Program-made: the position numbers and the translations under genes
Shown: one piece after another, positions 17,141 through 52,118 of the stretch
Numbering within the stretch: the first letter of the stretch is position 1
Layout: the number at the start of each line of letters is the position of its first letter
The notes under the pieces: model-generated
What the model was told of the DNA's origin: nothing
Database searches by the model: none
Seen by the model: the letters and a program-made list of their open reading frames with translations, nothing else
Origin: Clostridiales bacterium
Lineage (GTDB): Bacteria; Bacillota; Clostridia; Peptostreptococcales; Anaerovoracaceae
Direction of reading: 5' to 3'
NCBI GenBank assembly: GCA_012735145.1
Contig: JAAYIA010000004.1
Coordinates: forward strand, 1-59,043
DNA length: 59,043 bases

Positions 17141-18589
17141 TTATTCTATGATCGTTATGCTTCCATCCTTTTCAGTTTTGAGTGTCTGTCCATTCATCAC
17201 AGCTTCTATATATGATTTTGCCATCTCAATGCTGTCGGGATCTTGTGTCATAACATATGCAGCCGCTGATCCTGTAGTATAAGTTCCCATCGAGCCGTCA
17301 CCACCCACCAATGCGTTCTTGGTTATATTCCATTTTGGATTTCTTGCCAATTGCATCTTCACAAGAGATCTCATTTCTCTTGAACTAAAACTCATTTCAA
17401 AGTATTTCTTCAATTCAGACAGGACCTTGTTATAACTCAGAACCATAGTTTTGCTGTTCATAGCTTTCTTGAGTATCGCTTCAAGGACAGCCTGCTGATT
17501 CTTTACTCTTTGGTTATCACCTTCATCAAATGCTTTTCTTTCTCTCGCAAAAGCCAGAGCCTCTTCACCGTTCATGTGATTCCAGCCCTTCTTGACTGTC
17601 CAGTTTTTTCTTTTGACCGGAACAAACTCATAATCCGACTTCACATCAACACCGCCAATGGCATTTATAAACTTCTTAACAGTTGTAAAATTTACTTTCA
17701 CATAGTAATTAGCGTCTATATCCAGAAGACTTTCCTCTGCACCGACTGTGGTTGCAACGCTATAAAAGCCCGTATGAGTCAATTTATCCATCGCATAATC
17801 CATATCAGGCATGTATATCTGATAATCTCTCGGTATCGATGTCATCAATATCTGCTCTGTTGAAGGGTTAACAGTGACGACCATGTTTACATCAGAACGT
17901 CCCTGCTCGTCGATTGTTCCGTTCACATCTATTCCTGTTATAACGAAATTAAACGGGTCCTTCGTAATCTTTTCAACGCGTTTATCATTATCTACTGACG
18001 TATAGTTAAGGAATGTCAGGGTTCCTATGGCATATGCGGAACCAAGTAAATACATTCCCATCAAAAGAATACTCGTTACAGATGCAATGTCTCTTACAGT
18101 AGGTGAAATATTCTTCTTCCTTAATTGAACTACCAAAATGAAACTGAGAAGAATCAATATTAGATAAAAGATTATGAGGGTGACAAATGGAAGGATATCC
18201 AGAATTGTCATAATCGCAGCGAAAACAACCAAAGAAATTAAATACAATACAGAAAGTCCTTTGTGGAACTTTCCTGCCTTTCTCTTCTTCTTATTGCTCT
18301 TGGTTTTCTTGTTACCGTATGTGCTACGGTATTTGTCGTACGCTTCTTTCTGTGCCTGCTTTTTAGCAGCAGCTAATTCCACCTCAGAAGGATGTTCTTG
18401 CCTTGATCGACGTTTAACATCTCCAGAAACTTCCTGTGCTTTTCTTTCCCTGGGTTGTCCTCTTAATTCAGAATAGGCTTTCGCCTCATCGTACTGACTT
18501 TTTGCTCCATCACTCGAATGCTCTTCAGGAATTGGTTTACCATAGTCAAAATTAAGCAGATCGTCTAGATCTTGGTCTTTGCGACTCAT
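17141..18589 (-). CDS. LCP (LytR-CpsA-Psr) family cell-wall glycopolymer transferase
   Basis: 482 aa: a basic cytoplasmic N-terminus, TM helices, and an LCP domain with MTSIPRD and RERKAFDEGDNQRVKNQQ. Confidence 0.85.
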   Translation of the reverse strand: MSRKDQDLDDLLNFDYGKPIPEEHSSDGAKSQYDEAKAYSELRGQPRERKAQEVSGDVKRRSRQEHPSEVELAAAKKQAQKEAYDKYRSTYGNKKTKSNKKKRKAGKFHKGLSVLYLISLVVFAAIMTILDILPFVTLIIFYLILILLSFILVVQLRKKNISPTVRDIASVTSILLMGMYLLGSAYAIGTLTFLNYTSVDNDKRVEKITKDPFNFVITGIDVNGTIDEQGRSDVNMVVTVNPSTEQILMTSIPRDYQIYMPDMDYAMDKLTHTGFYSVATTVGAEESLLDIDANYYVKVNFTTVKKFINAIGGVDVKSDYEFVPVKRKNWTVKKGWNHMNGEEALAFARERKAFDEGDNQRVKNQQAVLEAILKKAMNSKTMVLSYNKVLSELKKYFEMSFSSREMRSLVKMQLARNPKWNITKNALVGGDGSMGTYTTGSAAAYVMTQDPDSIEMAKSYIEAVMNGQTLKTEKDGSITIIE

Positions 18590-24379: not shown

Positions 24380-24489
24380 TCGACTGTACGCATGCCCATC
24401 TCCGGTGAGTATACGCAGCCTTCTCCTTTCACTTCGATATTTCGAGATGTTTTCGTATGGCTTCGATTATACCACAGCCCTTTGCACTG

Positions 24490-24498
24490 TGTTATAAT
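24490..24498 (+). promoter_or_regulatory. Extended -10 element (TGTTATAAT) upstream of nadE
   Basis: A TGnTATAAT match 28 nt upstream of the ATG at 24526. No good -35 element. Confidence 0.4.
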
Positions 24499-24525
24499 GA
24501 GCCTGTGAATATTGGAGGTGAGATT

Positions 24526-25263
24526 ATGAATTTCGATGCCAACAAAGCGAAGAACGCAACCATTGAATGGATTCGTCAGTGGTTCGAAAAAAATGGATTC
24601 GGATGCAACGCAATAATAGGAATAAGCGGCGGCAAGGACAGCTCAATCGCAGCGGCTCTATGTGTAGAAGCTTTGGGTAAAGACAGAGTTATCGGAGTGA
24701 TGATGCCGAATGGGGATCAATCTGATATGGACATGGCAGTTCTGCTTGTGAATCATCTCGAGATTGAAAATTATGTAGTTAATATCAAAGGGGCCTTTGA
24801 CTATCTTCTAAACCAGATTAGTGATACTGGTATAGAAATCAGCGATAACACACGAATCAATCTACCTCCGAGATTAAGGATGTCCACCCTATATGCCGTC
24901 GCCCAATCCCGTAATGGTAGGGTTATAAACACAAGCAACCTTTCGGAAGATTGGGTTGGATACTCTACACAATATGGGGATTCTGTCGGCGATATGAGCC
25001 CTATGTCCAGCTTTACAGCTGCCGAAATACGTGCCATCGGAAGAGAACTCGGACTTCCTTCAATCCTTGTAGACAAAGTCCCTTCTGATGGACTAACGGG
25101 CAAAACAGACGAGGATAGACTAGGATTCACATATGAGGTTCTGGACCGATACATAAGAACAGGCGAAATAGACGATCTTGATATTAAAAATCGAATAGAT
25201 GAGCTGCATGAGAGAAATCAGTTTAAGCTGAGATTCATGGATTGCTTCAGATATGAAGGCTAA
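24526..25263 (+). CDS. nadE: NH3-dependent NAD+ synthetase
   Basis: PP-loop GISGGKDSS. I place the start at the ATG at 24526 (GGAGGTGAGATT-ATG) rather than the upstream track start at 24457. Confidence 0.9.
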   Translation: MNFDANKAKNATIEWIRQWFEKNGFGCNAIIGISGGKDSSIAAALCVEALGKDRVIGVMMPNGDQSDMDMAVLLVNHLEIENYVVNIKGAFDYLLNQISDTGIEISDNTRINLPPRLRMSTLYAVAQSRNGRVINTSNLSEDWVGYSTQYGDSVGDMSPMSSFTAAEIRAIGRELGLPSILVDKVPSDGLTGKTDEDRLGFTYEVLDRYIRTGEIDDLDIKNRIDELHERNQFKLRFMDCFRYEG

Positions 25264-25285: not shown

Positions 25286-25313
25286 AGTGCCCCTGTTGAG
25301 GGGCATTTTTTTG
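25286..25313. terminator. Bidirectional terminator between convergent nadE and copA
   Basis: TGCCCCT GTTG AGGGGCA followed by TTTTTTT, with an A-run upstream. Confidence 0.8.
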
Positions 25314-25333: not shown

Positions 25334-27442
25334 CTAAAACTTTATCAAATTGATTCTAAGTGCATTCATACACACACAGAACGATGAGATGCTCATGGCT
25401 GCTGCTGCCCACATTGGGGTAATTGTCCATCCTCCAAATAAAGAGATAAAGGCTCCCGCTGCAAGAGGAATCAACAATATATTGTAGAAAAATGCCCAGA
25501 AGAGATTCTCGTGAATATTTCTCAGAGTTTTGCGTCCAAGCTTGATGGCCTTTACAACATCGGTAATACTGCTGTTTATCAGTACAACATCAGCCGATTC
25601 GATTGCCACATCTGTGCCGGCTCCTATAGCAATACCAACATCCGCACTGACCAATGCAGGTGCATCATTGATTCCATCTCCGACCATTGCTGTCTTGTCC
25701 TTGTCAAGCAAGTCTTGTATAGCTTTTTCTTTGCCATCAGGCATAACCTCTGCAATTACCTCGTCAATACCTACTTCAGCAGCAATAGCTTCCGCTGTCG
25801 TACGTTTATCTCCTGTAATCATAACCGTATGAATTCCTAAGGCCTTAAGCTCTGAAATTGCCTGTCTGCTGTCCGTTCTTATTGAGTCGGCAACTGCAAC
25901 CACTCCGAGTAATTCTCCTCCCTTTGCAAAGAAAATCGATGTTTTCCCTGCATGTGAAAAATTCTCTGTTTCTTGCTGCAGTCTTTCTATGTCTGCCTCG
26001 TCAACATTGTTCTCAACCAGGAAGCTTGAATTCCCACCAACAATCCTCAAGGCTTTGCTCCCCTCTGTAATTACTGCCTCAACACCTCTGCCGGCAACTT
26101 CTTTGAAGTCTGCGATTCTCAGAGTTGTGCTCTTATAATAATCGCTTACCGCCTTTGCAACAGGATGATCTGATCTTGATTCCAAGGCTGCAGCTACGGA
26201 AATCAGCTCTTCTTCAGAAATGTCTCCGTAAGGATGAACATCAGTCACCACAGGCTCTCCGCCCGTTATTGTTCCCGTTTTATCCAAGGCTACAATCTTT
26301 ATTCTTCCCATCTCCTCAATTGCTGCTGCTGTTTTGAAGAGTATTCCGTTACGAGCTCCTACTCCGCTGCTTACCATTATCGCAACAGGCGTTGCCAGTC
26401 CTAAAGCACAAGGGCAGCTTATTACCAAAACAGCAATTGCTCTTGTCAGAGCATAAGATACTCCATGCCCGGCAATAAACCAGATAATAAACACCAAAGT
26501 CGCTATTCCTATTACCGCAGGAACAAAGATTCCTGCAATCCTATCTGCGACTCTTGAAATAGGTGCTTTTGATCCTACAGTATCGGATACAAGATTTATA
26601 ATTTGAGCGAGGGCTGTATCTTCGCCGATGCTCTTTGTCTTGACTCTTATATAGCCCGATTTATTAATAGTAGCCGCAGAAACTTTGTCTCCGACACTTT
26701 TATCTACAGGCAAGCTTTCTCCCGTCAGTGCGGACTCGTCTATTGCCGCATGCCCTTCAATTATCTCTCCATCGACAGGTATCTTCTCTCCGGGCTTTAC
26801 TACCACAACTTCTCCCAATCTAATGTAGTCGACACCTACGATTATCTCCTCACCGTCTCTTTCGACATTGGCTGTCTCCGGAACCAAATCAATCAGTGCC
26901 TTCAGTTCATTGGTTGTCTTTCCTTTTGAAATCGCCTCAAGCATTTTTCCCACGGTGATAAGTGTTACTATCATCGCTGCCGACTCAAAATAGATATTGT
27001 GTCCCCCTTGATGAATTTCTGTCGCTTTGCCTGAAATCATTGTTATGAGCACCCAAGCGCTCCAGAGGTATGAAACACCTGATCCCATAGCCACCAGTGT
27101 ATCCATATTCGGAGCCAACCTCATAGCTCCCTTAAATCCATTTATAAAAAAAATCCTATTTATGTACAGAATTATCGTAGCAAGAAGCATCTGGATAAGG
27201 TAATTCCCTATGCTACCGAATTTTTCTATCGGACCTAAAGGCCAGCCCAGCATGGAATGTCCCATAGAGAAATACATCAAGATTAATAAAAAACCCAAAG
27301 ATTGAATCAATCTTTTCTTAAGCTTGGGTGTTTCTGTATCTTCAAGGGCCTTTGCTCTATTCCTTATTTTATCTCTGTAACTTACTGAAGTACTTAATTC
27401 AGGGAGAGGAGGATGACTCACAGGCTGCACCGTAGCCGGCAT
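25334..27442 (-). CDS. copA: Copper-translocating P1B-type ATPase body (CopA) lacking its N-terminal metal-binding domain in this frame
   Basis: 702 aa with CPC ([11 protein letters not shown]), [19 protein letters not shown] and GDGINDAP. The MBD is encoded by the overlapping upstream ORF in another frame (see findings). Confidence 0.9.
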
Positions 27443-27611
27443 CCTCCACAGCTTTAATTATCACTTCAGGTTCAACATCACCTTCAACATTCATAGAATT
27501 AGTCAAAAGGTTAACCGATACACTTTCAACTCCTTCGAGCTCTTGTACAGCCTTCTCCACTCTCGCCGAGCAAGCAGCACATCCCATACCGTTCACAGTA
27601 TAATTTTTCAT
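27399..27611 (-). CDS. HMA (heavy-metal-associated) CopZ-like domain ORF, 70 aa; either a stand-alone chaperone or the frameshifted N-terminus of CopA
   Basis: [44 protein letters not shown]...[29 protein letters not shown] lies 6 nt upstream of the ATG at 27611. It ends CCC TGA and overlaps the ATPase ORF by 44 nt. Confidence 0.8.
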
Positions 27612-27652
27612 ATATATCTTCCTTTCTGTACGATTATATCCGTACGATAAAT

Positions 27653-28747
27653 TTATAGCGTTAGATCTCCGTCCTTCACCCATCCGAGTTTACGACAGCC
27701 TGTGTTAATAATCGGAGCAAGGATTGCAGGCAGAATAAATGATATGAGGATTAGTCCGAGCCAATCCATACCTGTGATTCCTACTTTTGCTCCCGAAGCA
27801 ACATCAGCGACCCAGCCGGAGTAAACTCCTATCTGTCCTACAAGCCCACATGTACCCATTCCGCTTGCAACAGGTGCTCCGTTCATCTGCAGCTTAAATA
27901 TACAAGTGGCTATCGGTCCCGTTATCGCCGCAGTCAAGGTAGGTGCAATCCATATACGAGGATTTTTTACAATATTACCCATTTGAAGCATCGATGTTCC
28001 TATTCCTTGTGAGACAAGGCCTCCCCATCTGTTTTCTCTGAATGACATCACGGCAAAACCAACCATCTGTGCACAGCAGCCGGCAACAGCAGCTCCGCCG
28101 GCCAGCCCGGTAAGACCCAGTGCTGCACATATAGCCGCTGAAGATATAGGTAATGTAAGAGCAACGCCGACTACTACGGAAACTATAATTCCCATAACAA
28201 GAGGCCTAAAATCTGTAGCCCACATTACTATTCTCCCTACTTCCATTGCCATCGCACCAAGACCCGGTGCCCACCAAACTGAGAGAGCTATGCCTGAGCC
28301 TATAGTTACAAGAGGAGTGACGAGTATGTCAACCTTAGTCTCTCCACATACTGCCTTTCCAAGCTCTGCAGCAATTATTGCTACGAACAGAACGGCAAGC
28401 GGTCCACCGGCCCCACCAAGGGTATTAGCTGCAAAGCCCACGGTTGCAAGCGAGAACAAAACAAGCGGTGGAGCTTTAAGTGCATAGCCTATTGCAACTG
28501 CCATAGCAGGACCTGTCATTGCCATCGCAAGACCCCCTGCTGTATACTCAGCACTTCCGACAACAGCTATCGGTTCTGTTAGGAATCCTATATGGAACTG
28601 AGTCCCTAGCGTGTTGATAATAGTTCCTATGAGGAGAGAACAGAACAAGCCTTGTGCCATTGCGGACAAAGCATCTATACCATACCTCTTTGCACTAATC
28701 TCGATTTGCTTGCGTTCCATAAACAATTTGATAGAATCTTTTGTCAT
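27653..28747 (-). CDS. Polytopic membrane protein, PTS EIIC-like (PTS_EIIC_2-type) family
   Basis: 364 aa, Gly/Ala-rich with about 10 TM helices. N-terminus FMERKQIEISAKRYGIDALSAMAQGLFCSLLIGTI. The family call is from memory of this N-terminal pattern only. Confidence 0.45.
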   Translation of the reverse strand: MTKDSIKLFMERKQIEISAKRYGIDALSAMAQGLFCSLLIGTIINTLGTQFHIGFLTEPIAVVGSAEYTAGGLAMAMTGPAMAVAIGYALKAPPLVLFSLATVGFAANTLGGAGGPLAVLFVAIIAAELGKAVCGETKVDILVTPLVTIGSGIALSVWWAPGLGAMAMEVGRIVMWATDFRPLVMGIIVSVVVGVALTLPISSAAICAALGLTGLAGGAAVAGCCAQMVGFAVMSFRENRWGGLVSQGIGTSMLQMGNIVKNPRIWIAPTLTAAITGPIATCIFKLQMNGAPVASGMGTCGLVGQIGVYSGWVADVASGAKVGITGMDWLGLILISFILPAILAPIINTGCRKLGWVKDGDLTL

Positions 28748-39454: not shown

Positions 39455-42328
39455 ATGAATTCAAAAATTAAAATTAATGATAAAATATGCGGTTTTACAG
39501 TAACTGATATACAGGATGCATATGATGCAGGGGGCAGACTTCTGCGTATGGAGCACGAGCACACCGGTGCGCAGCTTTGCTGGATAGATAACGGAGAAGA
39601 AAATAAACTTTTTTCTGTAGGCTTTAAAACTCTCCCTGAGGACAGCACAGGAGTTTTTCATATTATTGAACACTCTGTCCTTTGCGGATCAGAGAAATTT
39701 CCTGTCAAAGAACCATTTGTAGAGCTCTTGAAATCATCTATGAATACTTTCCTTAATGCTATGACTTTTCCTGACAAGACTCTCTATCCTGTATCTAGCC
39801 GTGTCGAGCAGGATTATCTTAATTTGACCGAAGTATATCTCGACGCTGTTTTCAATCCCCTCATACTCAAAGACAGTAAAATTTTCTATCAGGAGGGTCA
39901 TCATATTGAAACAACCGGAGATATTCCTGAGTATAAAGGTGTTGTCTTCAATGAAATGAAAGGGGCTATGTCAGATGTTGACAGAGTTGCAGAAGAAGGA
40001 ATGAACAAGCTTCTCTTTCCAGATAACTGCTATCAATATAATTCAGGTGGTAACCCTGAGGCAATAACGGATCTTACATATGAAGATTTTATAGATGCCT
40101 ATAAAAAATCCTATCATCCATCAAATTCGTATTTCTATCTCGACGGAGATATTCCTCTTGAGAAAACTCTTGAGATGATAAACTCATATCTAATCCATTT
40201 TGACAAGTCAGAGAATCTTCCCGAGATTACAACACAGACTCCAGTAACAGGTAAGGGAACTATGCAATTCGATACCAATGATGATGATGCAAAGGCTGTG
40301 GTTTGTTTTGGTAAGATTATTTGCGGATGGGAAGACAGGTGCAAGGTGCTCGCCATGCATGTGCTTTGCGACTACCTTGCCGACTCGAACGAGTCGCCGC
40401 TCAAAAGAGCAGTCCTGTCTTCCGGTCTCGCTGAGGATATGGAAGTCTACCTTATAGATGGAATAGCTCAGCCATATCTTATGATGATGTTCAGAGGAAC
40501 CTCTCCGGATCATGCAGCCAAACTACAGGAAATCTCAGAGCAAACCGTTTCAGATATCATTAATCAAGGTATACCTCATGATTCATTGACTGCAATAGTC
40601 AACCAAATGGAATTCAGGCAGAGGCAGCTTCCGGAGCCACAGGGCCTGTATAGGGCCTCATATGCACTCTCTTCTTGGCTTTACGGTGGGGATCCTCTTC
40701 TTTATATCAAAACAGGAGAAGCCATTTCCGAGCTTCGAGAAGCAATCAATAATAACATTGTCAAAGATCTAGCACAGAATTATTTTGCAGATATGTCAGA
40801 TTTTTCCAAGCTATATCTAATCCCTTCATCTACACTCGGAGAAGAACGAGGTAAAGAAGAAAACGCAAAGCTTATCAAGACCTTGTCCGAAATGCCCTCG
40901 GAAGAGAAGATTGCCCTTGATAATATGAATGTAGAACTTGAAAAATGGCAACATGAACCTGATAGCGAATCGGCGATTGCCTCAATCCCAAGACTTCGAT
41001 TAGAAGAAATAGATAAAACAGTTAACTTCCCTACAACAAAAATCAGCGAAATATCCGGTGTCAAAATTCTGTATCACGATTTACCATCCAACGATGTAAT
41101 CTACCTTACCTGCTATTTCCCGCTGACGGATCTTTCTCTCGAAGAGCTCACCGTATTCTCGTTGATGGCGGAGCTTTATAGGGAGCTACCTACGGAAAAC
41201 TACGATGTGACAAGCCTTGCGAAAGAGATTAAGAAATATATAGGTTCTTTAAACTTTGATATTGACACTTATGCAAAAGACGACGACAGATCATCATGTA
41301 CTCCTTGTATCAAGGTACAAGCAGCTTTTCTCAAGGAAAATCTCGCCCAGGCGGAGAGCTTGATATATGAGATCCTCCTCAAGACTAAATTTGATGATTC
41401 GGAACGCATACGAGAACTTGTAACACAAATAGACGAGGAGGGCAAAAGATTTGCTGTCTCTTCTGGAAATCGCCTTGGTGCTCTTGTCGCACGCTCACAT
41501 TACTCATCAATGGCTGCTGTATCTGAAGCAACAGGAGGTTATACTTTCATACAATACCTCCATAAAATTAACCAGGATTTTGATGCCAAATTCAAAGAAT
41601 TTCAAGACCTTGTTACACATGTAAATAATTCTATAGGCAGACAAGGAATGGTATTGAGCATCACTTCATCTGAGGAAGTTGATTTGACCGATTTTATAAA
41701 TCGCTTTGCAGAGGGTTCAGACAAACCTATTGCAGCCCAATATACAACAACTCTTCCGGCGAAGGTTGGTATTGCCGTACCTTCATCGGTTTCACATGCC
41801 GTTATCGCCTATGACCTAATAAGGATGGGCATCAAAGCCGATGGCAGTCTTCATGTCGCAACAAGCATCGTCTCCTTTTCTTATCTTTGGAACGAAATCA
41901 GAGTAAAAGGTGGTGCCTACGGTGCATCAATGTCATCAAGCAGAAACGGCTCTCTTCTTTGTCACACCTACAGAGATCCCAGTCCTGCCAGATCGATTGA
42001 CAAATTTGCCAATATAGCTGCATTCATAGATGATTATGCAAATAATCCGGGAAACAGTCTTGATGGTTTCATCATATCAACATTATCCAACACAGATCCT
42101 CTCGTATCCCCGGGAATCAAAGGCAGGATAGCCGACGATTTCTATCTGTCAGGTCTCAGCAATGATTACAGAATTCGTTTACGCAATGATATGCTCGAAA
42201 CCACACCGGATACCCTAAGAAAATGGAGCGAAGCCTTCCGAAAGATCTCGGACGAAGGCAGCGTATGTATTGTGGGCAGCGAAGCGGAACTAAAGGAATG
42301 TGCAGGTTTGACCATATATAAACTATAG
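39455..42328 (+). CDS. M16C insulinase-family metallopeptidase (PreP/PqqL-like)
   Basis: 957 aa with the inverted zinc motif HIIEH, then SVLCGSEKFP and NAMTFPDKT. Confidence 0.85.
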   Translation: MNSKIKINDKICGFTVTDIQDAYDAGGRLLRMEHEHTGAQLCWIDNGEENKLFSVGFKTLPEDSTGVFHIIEHSVLCGSEKFPVKEPFVELLKSSMNTFLNAMTFPDKTLYPVSSRVEQDYLNLTEVYLDAVFNPLILKDSKIFYQEGHHIETTGDIPEYKGVVFNEMKGAMSDVDRVAEEGMNKLLFPDNCYQYNSGGNPEAITDLTYEDFIDAYKKSYHPSNSYFYLDGDIPLEKTLEMINSYLIHFDKSENLPEITTQTPVTGKGTMQFDTNDDDAKAVVCFGKIICGWEDRCKVLAMHVLCDYLADSNESPLKRAVLSSGLAEDMEVYLIDGIAQPYLMMMFRGTSPDHAAKLQEISEQTVSDIINQGIPHDSLTAIVNQMEFRQRQLPEPQGLYRASYALSSWLYGGDPLLYIKTGEAISELREAINNNIVKDLAQNYFADMSDFSKLYLIPSSTLGEERGKEENAKLIKTLSEMPSEEKIALDNMNVELEKWQHEPDSESAIASIPRLRLEEIDKTVNFPTTKISEISGVKILYHDLPSNDVIYLTCYFPLTDLSLEELTVFSLMAELYRELPTENYDVTSLAKEIKKYIGSLNFDIDTYAKDDDRSSCTPCIKVQAAFLKENLAQAESLIYEILLKTKFDDSERIRELVTQIDEEGKRFAVSSGNRLGALVARSHYSSMAAVSEATGGYTFIQYLHKINQDFDAKFKEFQDLVTHVNNSIGRQGMVLSITSSEEVDLTDFINRFAEGSDKPIAAQYTTTLPAKVGIAVPSSVSHAVIAYDLIRMGIKADGSLHVATSIVSFSYLWNEIRVKGGAYGASMSSSRNGSLLCHTYRDPSPARSIDKFANIAAFIDDYANNPGNSLDGFIISTLSNTDPLVSPGIKGRIADDFYLSGLSNDYRIRLRNDMLETTPDTLRKWSEAFRKISDEGSVCIVGSEAELKECAGLTIYKL

Positions 42329-51182: not shown

Positions 51183-52118
51183 ATGAATTTTAAGATGAAT
51201 GAACGCAAAGGTGAATTTATTGTAGGTCTGGCCCTTGCACTGAGGGGCTCTTCTCTTCTTTTTGGTAAAATCGCACTGAGAACAATGGGACCTTTTCTTT
51301 TGATGGGTACGCGATTTATTATTGCATTTGTACTAATCGGTCTTATATTTCATAAACAATTGGTCAAAGTAACGAGAACAGAGCTCTGGCACTGTACATT
51401 ACTTGGTTTTTTCTTCTTTCTTTCTATGGCCTTCGAGTTGAACGGTCTCAAAACCACACCTTCTTCTGTCACGGCTTTCCTTGAGGGATCTGTTGTTGTT
51501 ACCGTTCCTGTTATAACATGTATTGTGACGAGAAAACTTCCTACGCGAATGGTGGTTCTGACTTCAATTATCGCTCTTCTTGGTGTGGGTTTTCTGACTC
51601 TTAAAGGTGGACGGATAGGATTTACGACAGGCGAACTTCTTATACTGACAAGTGCTATGTGGTACTCTATTACTGTGCTTATCACGGATAAAGCTGCAAA
51701 AAACGACGATCCTATGGTAATCGCCATATATCAGCTTCTATTCATATCTCTCTTTGCATTTGCCGGCGCATTCATCTGGGAGGACATTCGTCTTCCACAA
51801 AACACAACTGAGTGGAGTGCTATTCTGGCTCTCGCTTTGATATGTAGCGGCTTAGGCTTCACTTTGCAGCCTCTGGGACAGAAATATATAACGCCTGAGA
51901 GAGCAGGATTGCTTTCCGTATTCAACCCTCTTTCCGCATCGACTCTTGGTATCATATTCCTTGGCGAAAAAATAACTTGGAGCATCTTTGTAGGCTCACT
52001 TCTTATTATTATTTCAATCTTCTTACCGTCCTTTATCAATAAAAAACCAACTACTCTCGACGAGAACATTTCCGAAACAAATCTGCCCAAGTCCGATTGC
52101 AGCAACACAGAACCCTAA
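51183..52118 (+). CDS. DMT (EamA-type) family transporter
   Basis: 311 aa with 10 TM helices in two EamA-like halves. No clear RBS; the start is uncertain (alternative ATG at 51195). Confidence 0.7.
   Translation: MNFKMNERKGEFIVGLALALRGSSLLFGKIALRTMGPFLLMGTRFIIAFVLIGLIFHKQLVKVTRTELWHCTLLGFFFFLSMAFELNGLKTTPSSVTAFLEGSVVVTVPVITCIVTRKLPTRMVVLTSIIALLGVGFLTLKGGRIGFTTGELLILTSAMWYSITVLITDKAAKNDDPMVIAIYQLLFISLFAFAGAFIWEDIRLPQNTTEWSAILALALICSGLGFTLQPLGQKYITPERAGLLSVFNPLSASTLGIIFLGEKITWSIFVGSLLIIISIFLPSFINKKPTTLDENISETNLPKSDCSNTEP

What the first reader, a model, noticed from the sequence alone, without database searches (positions are those of the whole stretch)
27398..27460. copA is split at a CCC_UGA +1 shift-prone stop: candidate programmed frameshift choosing between a CopZ-like chaperone and the full-length pump
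On the minus strand, a complete 70-aa HMA domain ORF (27611 to 27399, CxxC site GMGCAAC) is followed by a 702-aa P1B ATPase body (27442 to 25334) with no metal-binding domain of its own. The two overlap by 44 nt, and the ATPase lies in the +1 frame. The ATPase frame is open only from 27457. Its first ATG has GGAGG directly abutting it with no spacer, so independent initiation looks poor. The HMA frame ends TCA TCC TCC TCT CCC TGA A. A +1 slip of peptidyl-tRNA-Pro from CCC to CCU would put GAA TTA AGT (ELSTSV..., the ATPase frame) in the A site. That would yield a single-MBD CopA of about 757 aa with normal architecture. CCC_UGA has been reported as a +1 shift-prone context in E. coli, and prfB uses the analogous CUU_UGA. 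E. coli copA itself uses programmed -1 frameshifting to make a 70-aa CopA(Z) chaperone. Here termination would give the chaperone and frameshifting the pump, the inverse logic, which to my knowledge has not been described. The mundane alternatives are a real 1-nt indel (split gene or pseudogene) or an assembly error.
Basis: partly seen in the sequence, partly recalled or inferred. Interest (0 to 1): 0.7.

Follow-up and report, generated by a model that had tools for sequence, protein, structure and literature searches.

The report
Conserved +1 frameshift site splitting copA
A copper-pump gene is written in two reading frames that meet at a rare CCC codon, and every known relative in its clade keeps this layout, so ribosomes most likely make a small copper chaperone by default and the full pump only when they slip one base forward.

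Summary
It is neither an assembly error nor a recent indel. Six independent public assemblies carry the same junction. Fourteen further lineages, with ATPase identity down to 67% and saturated synonymous sites, keep the same layout: a 68-73-aa HMA ORF, then the P1B ATPase body in the +1 frame.

These 15 sequences form one clade among 138 in-frame relatives, and no in-frame member lies inside it. The junction codon is CCC in 15 of 15, although CCC makes up only 6.6% of the other Pro codons in these genes. The next base is A (12) or T (3), never G or C. The 0-frame stop follows 0-3 codons later. The next codon is AGT in ten lineages, and AGG, AGA, TGT-TGA or TTT-TGA in four. Only the window has TGA directly after CCC.

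No start codon or Shine-Dalgarno site is conserved in the ATPase frame, and no conserved RNA structure was found.

Best reading, at about 0.78: a programmed +1 frameshift at CCC. Termination gives a CopZ-like chaperone and slippage gives a 758-aa CopA. This mirrors the E. coli copA -1 frameshift with inverted logic. I found no published description. No experimental proof exists, and the efficiency is unknown.

The parts
27620..27627 (-). Shine-Dalgarno-like AAAGGAAG, 8 nt upstream of the HMA ATG. This is the only plausible ribosome entry site for the whole copA unit.
   Evidence: Sequence. The anti-SD duplex is -5.9 kcal/mol here, and -5.6 to -11.9 kcal/mol at the same place in all 15 clade loci.
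27399..27611 (-). 0-frame ORF of 70 aa encoding a CopZ-like HMA domain (GMGCAAC), ending ...CESSSSP-TGA. This is the default translation product.
   Evidence: Pfam HMA match at E=2e-21. dN is 0.03-0.28 while dS is mostly above 1 across the clade, which indicates purifying selection.
27398..27407 (-). Proposed +1 shift site TCT CCC TGA A. tRNA-Pro in the P site slips from CCC (27404-27402) to CCU (27403-27401), which puts GAA (27400-27398) in the A site.
   Evidence: CCC is invariant in 15 of 15 clade loci. The preceding codon is T[C/G]N. The next base is A in 12 loci and T in 3. The 0-frame stop lies 0-3 codons downstream. CCC is 9% of Pro codons in the window and 6.6% elsewhere in these genes.
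27399..27457 (-). Overlap window in which the +1 frame is already open and the 0 frame has not yet terminated. Any productive shift must occur here.
   Evidence: The equivalent window is 50-122 nt long in the relatives.
25334..27400 (-). +1-frame coding sequence of the P1B-1 Cu(I)-ATPase body: 688 codons after the shift, plus the stop codon. It carries [22 protein letters not shown] and MSxSS motifs.
   Evidence: Pfam E1-E2_ATPase and Hydrolase matches. The post-shift ORF is intact at 685-695 codons in all 12 complete clade loci, with dN 0.02-0.26 and dS saturated.
27428..27447 (-). Candidate internal start signals that are not conserved. GGAGG (27447-27443) abuts ATG (27442-27440). GTG (27430-27428) lies 12 nt downstream of the GGAGG.
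   Evidence: The ATG derives from GAT-GCN (Asp-Ala of the EDAGYG motif) and is present in only 10 of 15 loci, with a weak SD duplex (-2.5 to -5.5 kcal/mol). The GTG with an SD-like duplex (-9.3 kcal/mol) is specific to the window.
25288..25305 (-). Terminator-like GC-rich hairpin followed by a T-rich tail, 29 nt after the copA stop codon.
   Evidence: This is a consensus scan only.

Best explanation
copA in this clade is expressed through a programmed +1 ribosomal frameshift.

- Ribosomes start at the HMA ATG (27611).
- Most terminate at the 0-frame stop just after the HMA domain and release a roughly 70-aa CopZ-like copper chaperone.
- A fraction slip one base forward while peptidyl-tRNA-Pro sits on the rare CCC codon. 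The slip is CCC to CCA in most lineages and CCC to CCU in the window.
- Those ribosomes continue in the +1 frame and make a 758-aa CopA with a normal layout of one N-terminal metal-binding domain.
- In the window the A-site codon is the UGA stop, and release after a C-terminal Pro is slow. In most relatives it is AGU, a rare Ser codon in those genes.

**Shown:** the ORF architecture, its conservation, the invariant CCC(A/T), purifying selection on both halves, and the lack of conserved initiation signals.

**Inferred:** that slippage happens, which tRNA slips, the efficiency (probably low), and the chaperone role of the short product.
For: 1. The split is real. Six independent Logan assemblies have the identical 91-nt junction and differ from the window by only 2-3 substitutions, with no indels, over 2278 nt.
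2. Fourteen further lineages carry an HMA ORF of 68-73 aa with the ATPase always in the +1 frame. Indels in the linker come in multiples of 3.
3. In a neighbour-joining tree with 138 in-frame relatives, the 15 split sequences are monophyletic and no in-frame member lies among them. A junction-peptide profile found no in-frame revertant among 5.8 billion proteins.
4. dS is above 1 or saturated between nearly all pairs while dN is 0.02-0.26. All 12 complete post-shift ORFs are intact.
5. CCC is invariant at the junction (15 of 15), against 19 of 288 (6.6%) for the other Pro codons in these genes. The following base is A in 12 and T in 3, never G or C. CCA would be only 5.6% of Pro codons, and the 0-frame residue at that position is not conserved (S, R, stop, C or F). 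Neither frame's protein sequence therefore explains this base.
6. The variant sites are all known shift-prone types: CCC_AGU, CCC_AGG, CCC_AGA, CCC_UGA, CCC_UGU_UGA and CCC_UUU_UGA.
7. There is no conserved start in the ATPase frame. The ATG at -38 is a by-product of GAT-GCN, is absent in 5 of 15 loci, and has a weak or abutting SD. L102 has no start codon between -83 and +118.
8. The conserved +1-frame peptide starts immediately after the site ([20 protein letters not shown]). The conceptual product is colinear, with the same linker length, with in-frame homologues.
9. There is precedent. +1 frameshifting at CCC_UGA and at CCC followed by a sense codon is used by Listeria phages (PMC5009743). 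tRNA-Pro(UGG) pairs weakly with CCC and shifts readily (PMC4519876).
Against: - There is no experimental evidence of a trans-frame protein.
- No stimulatory element was found. RNAalifold on 15 sequences from -45 to +105 gives no conserved structure. There is no SD-like sequence at prfB-type spacing, and no Rfam match.
- CCC followed by an A-starting codon occurs 20 times in frame in the window's other ORFs and is not avoided. Intrinsic slippage at CCC_A is therefore probably low unless unseen context boosts it.
- AGT is not rare in the window organism, and AGA (in L182) is usually a common codon, so the slow A-site codon idea fits only partly.
- The third C of CCC is also the second base of a +1-frame Pro codon. 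Dual coding could contribute to its invariance.
- P1B pumps lacking the metal-binding domain are known to work, so a separately initiated pump would be viable.
- The window has a GTG 12 nt downstream of a GGAGG.
Confidence: 0.78

Rival explanations
1. These are two separate genes: a copZ-like chaperone gene and a copA that lacks a metal-binding domain. The pump is translated independently, either from an internal start inside the HMA ORF or by termination-reinitiation coupling.
For: - Gene callers annotate the locus this way everywhere.
- An ATG at -38 exists in 10 of 15 loci, and the window has a GTG 12 nt downstream of a GGAGG.
- From general knowledge, separate copZ and copA genes are common in Bacillota, and P1B pumps without a metal-binding domain are functional.
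- No frameshift stimulator was found.
Against: - The start codon is not conserved. It is absent in L007, L090, L091, L102 and L180, and L102 has none between -83 and +118.
- SD duplexes at these candidate starts are weak or have zero spacing, whereas the HMA start always has one.
- Overlaps of 44-95 nt are atypical for coupled genes.
- This model does not explain the invariant CCC plus A/T, which includes a base that is synonymous or unconstrained in both frames.
- It does not explain why all variants are classic +1 shift-prone motifs.
- The upstream +1-frame peptide is unconstrained.
Confidence: 0.15
2. The cause is transcriptional slippage, or some other recoding event such as a quadruplet-reading tRNA-Pro or a -2 shift, rather than P-site slippage of a normal tRNA.
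For: A quadruplet-like reading of CCCA or CCCU would give the same protein. The data cannot separate these sub-mechanisms.
Against: There is no homopolymer long enough for RNA polymerase slippage. The run is 3 C in most loci and 5 C in two. No tRNA-Pro gene is available to inspect; the window holds only tRNA-Arg. A -2 shift has no re-pairing option at this site.
Confidence: 0.03
3. copA is a pseudogene, or the split comes from a recent 1-nt indel and the pump is simply inactive.
For: A single-base frame break after the first domain is what a random indel would look like in one genome.
Against: The break is shared by 15 lineages whose synonymous sites are saturated. Both halves are under strong purifying selection, and all 12 complete post-shift ORFs are intact at 685-695 codons.
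Confidence: 0.02
4. The split is an assembly or base-calling error at the CCC run.
For: None beyond prior plausibility for a short C run.
Against: The junction is identical in six independent sequencing runs and assemblies. The same frame relation appears in ENA, NCBI, JGI and Logan assemblies of 14 other lineages.
Confidence: 0.01

Closest known systems
E. coli copA programmed -1 frameshift producing the 70-aa CopA(Z) chaperone (Meydan 2017 and Drees 2017, as cited in PMC9548414; also PMC5009743)
   Same: - The gene family is the same.
- One mRNA gives a roughly 70-aa HMA chaperone and the pump.
- The recoding site sits in the linker right after the first metal-binding domain, at about codon 70.
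- A CCC triplet is part of the site (from memory, C_CCA_AAG in E. coli).
   Different: - The direction is +1, not -1.
- The logic is inverted. Here the 0 frame terminates to give the chaperone and the pump needs the shift. In E. coli the 0 frame gives the pump and the shift gives the chaperone.
- There is no X_XXY_YYZ heptamer and no downstream pseudoknot.
- The full product has one metal-binding domain rather than two.
Listeria phage A118/A500/PSA +1 frameshifts at CCC_UGA (tsh) and ACA_CCC_(UCC) (PSA cps) (PMC5009743)
   Same: - The shift is +1 with tRNA-Pro on a rare CCC codon, in low-GC Bacillota.
- Both a stop codon and a sense codon are used in the A site.
- The product is an extension of the shorter protein.
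   Different: - Those are phage structural genes, where the shift adds a C-terminal extension to a minority of subunits.
- Here the gene is cellular and chromosomal, and the essential enzymatic body lies entirely downstream of the shift.
prfB (release factor 2) +1 frameshift at CUU_UGA
   Same: - It is a conserved bacterial chromosomal gene whose full-length product requires a +1 shift shortly before a 0-frame stop.
- The window's CCC_UGA has the same stop-in-A-site form.
   Different: - prfB depends on an internal Shine-Dalgarno sequence 3 nt upstream and is autoregulated by RF2 acting at the UGA.
- No such SD is present here.
- 12 of 15 lineages have a sense codon, not a stop, after CCC.
- The short prfB product has no function, whereas here it is a complete HMA domain.
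copZ-copA operons of Bacillota (B. subtilis copZA, Enterococcus hirae copYZAB; from general knowledge)
   Same: The products are a roughly 69-70-aa CopZ-type chaperone and a P1B-1 pump. In several clade members csoR lies directly upstream.
   Different: In those operons copZ and copA are separate genes with their own ribosome-binding sites, and CopA keeps its own N-terminal metal-binding domain or domains. Here the only metal-binding domain available to the pump is the chaperone ORF itself.
Yeast Ty3 (GCG_AGU_U) and EST3 (CUU_AGU_U) +1 sites (PMC5009743)
   Same: AGU serves as the slow 0-frame A-site codon and GUN as the +1-frame codon. Ten of 15 lineages have CCC_AGU_A, read as GUA after the shift.
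   Different: Those are eukaryotic systems. Ty3 shifts without P-site re-pairing, whereas CCC to CCA re-pairs well. AGU rarity holds only for the GC-richer clade members.

Membership tests
P1B-1 Cu(I)-exporting ATPase (CopA) | P-type ATPase core: an actuator domain with TGES and a phosphorylation domain with DKTGT and GDGINDAP | tested here: met
   Pfam E1-E2_ATPase (E=1.7e-55) and Hydrolase (E=8e-37). LTGES, DKTGTIT and GDGINDAP are visible in the translation and invariant in the alignment.
P1B-1 Cu(I)-exporting ATPase (CopA) | Transmembrane metal-site signature: CPC, then YN, then MxxSS | tested here: met
   [19 protein letters not shown] and AMSISSF are present and conserved. Assigning this signature to Cu(I) specificity rests on established knowledge of the family.
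P1B-1 Cu(I)-exporting ATPase (CopA) | N-terminal HMA metal-binding domain on the same polypeptide | tested here: inconclusive
   It is absent from the 702-aa ORF and present only in the conceptual +1 product. It is in frame in 156 of 159 relatives outside the clade.
CopZ/Atx1-type copper chaperone | A stand-alone HMA fold of about 70 aa with an MxCxxC motif | tested here: met
   The 70-aa ORF matches Pfam HMA over residues 4-60 at E=2e-21 and contains GMGCAAC. Copper binding and transfer were not tested.
Programmed +1 ribosomal frameshift | Two overlapping ORFs in a +1 relation, with homology to a single protein running across the junction | tested here: met
   The conceptual product is colinear with in-frame homologues and has the same linker length.
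Programmed +1 ribosomal frameshift | ORF architecture conserved over long evolutionary distance, with both parts under purifying selection | tested here: met
   There are 15 lineages forming one clade, with dS saturated and dN 0.02-0.26. In addition, 44 protein clusters (90% identity) of short HMA ORFs end in P plus 0-3 residues.
Programmed +1 ribosomal frameshift | A shift-prone site conserved at the nucleotide level beyond what the protein sequence requires | tested here: met
   CCC occurs in 15 of 15 junctions against a 6.6% background. The fourth base is A or T only. All variants are known shift-prone patterns. One caveat applies: dual coding could explain the third C.
Programmed +1 ribosomal frameshift | No independent initiation signal for the downstream frame | tested here: met
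   No start codon is conserved, and SD duplexes are weak or have zero spacing. The window-specific GTG at 27430 leaves some doubt for this one genome.
Programmed +1 ribosomal frameshift | A trans-frame protein is detected, and the shift depends on the site | not testable with these tools
   This needs proteomics, ribosome profiling or reporter assays.
prfB-type +1 frameshift | An internal Shine-Dalgarno sequence about 3 nt upstream of the shift codon, with a UGA in the A site | tested here: not met
   No SD-like sequence lies at that spacing. GAGGA occurs 10-11 nt upstream in about half the loci only. UGA directly follows the shift codon only in the window.
E. coli copA-type -1 frameshift | An X_XXY_YYZ slippery heptamer, a downstream pseudoknot, and a -1 frame that terminates at once | tested here: not met
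   The ATPase lies in the +1 frame. The -1 frame is full of stops and leads nowhere. No conserved downstream structure was found.

The most novel reading that the evidence does not exclude
A whole clade of anaerobic Clostridia (Mogibacterium-like Anaerovoracaceae from gut and rumen samples) has made a +1 ribosomal frameshift at a bare CCC-A/U site obligatory for producing its copper pump. The unshifted product is the cognate copper chaperone. This would be a convergent mirror image of the E. coli copA -1 frameshift. It would also be one of very few conserved +1 frameshifts in a non-mobile bacterial gene besides prfB. Because no mRNA stimulator is evident, the chaperone-to-pump ratio might be set, or even regulated, by tRNA-Pro supply or modification, by EF-P, or by the acidic Cys/Ser-rich nascent tail.
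Probability: 0.7. Interest if true: 0.8.

Novelty: new variant of a known kind. Interest (0 to 1): 0.75.

Why it matters
Conserved programmed +1 frameshifts in ordinary bacterial genes are very rare. prfB is the textbook case.

This one would show that two distant lineages independently solved the same problem, making a copper chaperone and its partner pump from one gene. They used opposite frameshifts with opposite default products.

It would offer a natural minimal +1 site, CCC-A/U with no obvious stimulator. That site could be used to study how tRNA-Pro, m1G37 and EF-P control reading-frame maintenance in Bacillota.

It also has a practical side. Annotation pipelines currently call these loci as a small HMA protein plus a copA lacking a metal-binding domain with a wrong start. 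As a result, the pump's real N-terminus is missed in every member of the clade.

Tried and rejected
- **Assembly error:** rejected. Six independent assemblies have the identical junction.
- **Recent indel or pseudogene:** rejected. The split is clade-wide, dS is saturated, and the ORFs are intact.
- **CCC_TGA as the conserved heptad:** rejected. Only the window has it; relatives have CCC_AGT and other variants.
- **prfB-like upstream SD stimulator:** not found.
- **Conserved RNA structure or pseudoknot from -45 to +105:** none. RNAalifold gave 3 trivial pairs and no covariation.
- **Known RNA family at the junction:** none in Rfam.
- **Transcriptional slippage:** rejected, because there is no homopolymer.
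- **UGA read-through in the 0 frame:** leads to a stop 9 codons later. Relatives use TAA or TAG.
- **GTDB genome scan:** It was useless for finding clade members but served as an in-frame baseline.
- **Search for an in-frame revertant spanning the junction:** none found.
- **Hungry A-site codon as a general explanation:** only partly supported. AGT is rare in the GC-richer members but not in the window.
- **Literature searches for a described +1 frameshift in copA or a P1B ATPase:** nothing found. The library lacks many subscription papers, so prior description cannot be excluded.
- **tRNA-Pro repertoire:** could not be examined, because the window holds only tRNA-Arg.
Full report
**1. Observation**

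All coordinates here are on the minus strand. A 70-aa ORF (27611..27399) encodes a complete HMA domain with GMGCAAC. It ends TCT CCC TGA A (27407..27398). A 702-aa ORF (ATG 27442 to 25334) lies in the +1 frame, which is open from 27457. The overlap is 44 nt from that ATG. The third frame is closed by several stops.

Pfam places HMA (E=2e-21) on the short ORF. It places E1-E2_ATPase plus Hydrolase, but no HMA, on the long ORF. Skipping T27401 gives a 758-aa protein with all three domains. The [22 protein letters not shown] and MSxSS motifs mark it as a P1B-1 Cu(I) pump.

**2. Not an artefact and not a recent mutation**

The exact 702-aa and 70-aa products are encoded on contigs from at least six independent sequencing runs. 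Their 91-nt junction is identical to the window. The 2278-nt HMA-to-stop stretch differs by only 2-3 substitutions, with no indels.

**3. The split is a clade character**

A search with the conceptual fused protein gave a clear pattern. The ten nearest protein clusters (67-78% identity) are all 697-709 aa and lack HMA. More distant hits (at or below 64%) are about 860 aa with HMA in frame.

I fetched DNA for these and for three metagenome loci and two further HMA-ORF clusters. Together with the window, that makes 15 distinct lineages. In all 15, an HMA ORF of 68-73 aa overlaps an ATPase body in the +1 frame.

Genomic context differs between lineages. Several have csoR directly upstream. The window subclade sits behind a PTS_EIIC_2 gene.

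As a baseline, the HMA domain is in frame in 79 of 79 CopA loci from GTDB species representatives. It is also in frame in 77 of 80 metagenome loci with a similar HMA. The remaining three are the clade members.

In a neighbour-joining tree with 138 in-frame relatives, the 15 split sequences form one clade with no in-frame sequence inside it. A profile of the conceptual junction peptide found no protein spanning the junction in frame among 5.8 billion sequences. An HMA-ORF profile found 44 clusters of short HMA proteins ending in Pro plus 0-3 residues.

**4. Both halves are functional**

Between nearly all pairs, dS is above 1 or too saturated to compute, while dN is 0.02-0.26 for both the ATPase and the HMA part. 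All 12 complete post-shift ORFs are intact at 685-695 codons. A pseudogene is excluded.

**5. Anatomy of the junction**

I anchored the 15 sequences on the last Pro codon.

| Lineage(s) | 0-frame sequence at the junction |
|---|---|
| Window | TCT CCC TGA |
| 10 lineages | T[C/G]N CCC AGT, then 1-2 further codons, then stop |
| L100 | TCG CCC AGG TAA |
| L182 | TCG CCC AGA GGA TAG |
| L180 | TCT CCC TGT TGA |
| L102 | TCC CCC TTT TGA |

- CCC is invariant in 15 of 15. Elsewhere in the same genes CCC is 19 of 288 Pro codons (6.6%), and six genes have no other CCC. In the window, CCC is the rarest Pro codon at 9%.
- The base after CCC is A in 12 lineages and T in 3, never G or C.
- One caveat applies to the third C. 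It is also the second base of a +1-frame Pro codon, so dual coding could fix it if both frames were translated.
- The fourth base has no such explanation. It is the synonymous position of that +1-frame codon, where CCA would be only 5.6% of Pro codons. In the 0 frame it is the first base of a residue that is not conserved (S, R, stop, C or F). Selection therefore acts on the nucleotides themselves.
- In the neighbouring HMA codons (GTN GAR GAY GCN GGN TAY GGN) the third positions vary freely.
- Every variant is a recognised +1-prone pattern: CCC before a stop, CCC before AGU, AGG or AGA, or CCC_UUU_UGA, which adds a second slippery codon in front of a stop.

**6. No independent way into the ATPase frame**

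The called ATG (at -38 from CCC) is a by-product of GAT-GCN, the Asp-Ala of the conserved EDAGYG motif. It is missing wherever Asp is encoded GAC, or otherwise absent (L007, L090, L091, L102, L180).

Its SD duplex is weak, at -2.5 to -5.5 kcal/mol, or abuts the ATG directly. The HMA start always has an SD of -5.6 to -11.9 kcal/mol. L102 has no ATG, GTG or TTG between -83 and +118.

The next downstream starts, near +100, would delete the conserved [20 protein letters not shown] segment. That segment begins right after the site and is homologous to the linker of in-frame CopAs.

The +1-frame peptide upstream of CCC is unconstrained.

The window does have a GTG (27430) 12 nt downstream of a GGAGG. 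This leaves some room for internal initiation in this one genome, but the feature is not conserved.

**7. Stimulators**

None was found. RNAalifold on 15 sequences from -45 to +105 gives no conserved structure and no covariation. There is no Rfam match and no SD-like element at prfB-type spacing.

CCC followed by an A-starting codon is not avoided in the window's other genes, at 20 of 49 CCC codons. The intrinsic slip rate is therefore probably modest.

AGT is a rare Ser codon in the GC-richer members, at 0-9% of Ser codons in the same genes. It is not rare in the window organism (15%). Notably, the window is also the lineage where that codon has been replaced by a stop.

The tail before the site is acidic and rich in Cys and Ser (C-E-E-D-S-S-P). 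This is unlike the linkers of in-frame relatives. A nascent-peptide contribution is possible but untested.

**8. Mechanism proposed**

The shown and inferred steps are kept apart here.

- **Shown:** the architecture, the conservation and the codon statistics.
- **Inferred:** the steps that follow.
  - Ribosomes that start at the HMA ATG reach CCC with peptidyl-tRNA-Pro in the P site.
  - Pro is a poor peptidyl donor and a poor substrate for release (general knowledge).
  - tRNA-Pro(UGG) pairs weakly with CCC and better with CCA (PMC4519876).
  - A fraction of ribosomes therefore re-pair on CCA or CCU, one base forward, and continue into the ATPase frame.
  - The rest terminate 0-3 codons later and release the chaperone-sized HMA protein.
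  - The result is a fixed, probably high, chaperone-to-pump ratio from one mRNA.

**9. Comparison with known systems**

The closest functional analogue is the E. coli copA -1 frameshift, which yields the 70-aa CopA(Z) (PMC5009743; PMC9548414). It involves the same gene family, the same two products and the same position after the first metal-binding domain. It differs in direction, in which product is the default, and in having a heptamer and pseudoknot.

The closest mechanistic analogue is the set of Listeria phage +1 shifts at CCC_UGA and at CCC followed by a sense codon. prfB shares the need for a +1 shift but has an SD stimulator and RF2 feedback, neither of which is present here.

Seven literature searches found no description of a +1 frameshift in copA or any P1B ATPase. 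The library is incomplete, so this is absence of evidence only.

**10. Verdict**

| Explanation | Confidence |
|---|---|
| Programmed +1 frameshift at CCC | about 0.78 |
| Two independently translated genes | about 0.15 |
| Other recoding routes | about 0.03 |
| Pseudogene | about 0.02 |
| Sequencing or assembly error | about 0.01 |

This is a new variant of a known kind, namely frameshift-coupled chaperone and pump expression in copA. A recoding specialist would find it surprising, and it can be tested directly with a short reporter and one diagnostic peptide. The nearest named relatives are Mogibacterium-like MAGs (Anaerovoracaceae), not Lachnospiraceae.

Noticed in passing
window 27653-28747 (-) and loci L091, L096, L097: In the window, copA sits 41 nt downstream of a PTS_EIIC_2-family gene and has no copper regulator next to it. 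The only promoter-like match on that strand lies upstream of the PTS gene (28824-28795). In the other subclade a csoR (PF02583) gene lies directly upstream of the HMA ORF. How copper regulates the window's copA is therefore unclear.
   Followed up: partly
proteins P0008, P0014, P0018, P0083: The nearest in-frame relatives (about 860 aa, Mogibacterium-annotated) carry a second HMA domain at the extreme C terminus, after the last transmembrane helix. The frameshift clade has lost it.
   Followed up: no
protein P0243: This clade-like ATPase N-terminal fragment reads ...KAPARPAKANYIEKV and lacks the usual L-P-V signature of the +1 frame. It may represent another junction variant. Its DNA was not seen.
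   Followed up: no
proteins P0148, P0156, P0158: These short HMA ORFs have N-termini typical of in-frame families (GMTCA or GMSCA) but tails typical of the clade (..SSPR..DSPSR..SSPRG). Either the arrangement extends beyond the GMGCAAC group, or there has been recombination.
   Followed up: no
L119, L150, L153: Three in-frame copA loci from short metagenome contigs (coverage 1.1-1.3x where the contig name gives it) have premature stops well inside the ATPase body. These look like sequencing errors. They differ from the clade-specific split.
   Followed up: no
window 51183-52118 (+); 39455-42328 (+); 17141-18589 (-): One other ORF in the window ends in CCC_TAA. Single in-frame CCC_AGT and CCC_AGG occur in two long ORFs. 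These sites could serve as internal controls for how leaky CCC contexts are in this organism.
   Followed up: no
window 25288-25305 (-): A GC-rich hairpin with a T-rich tail lies 29 nt after the copA stop codon. It is probably the transcription terminator of the unit. A convergent NAD synthase gene (24457-25263, +) lies beyond it.
   Followed up: partly
L061 and L067: Two distant CopA loci have a separate upstream HMA ORF in another frame, while the pump also keeps its own in-frame HMA. This is the ordinary copZ-plus-copA arrangement and contrasts with the clade studied here.
   Followed up: no
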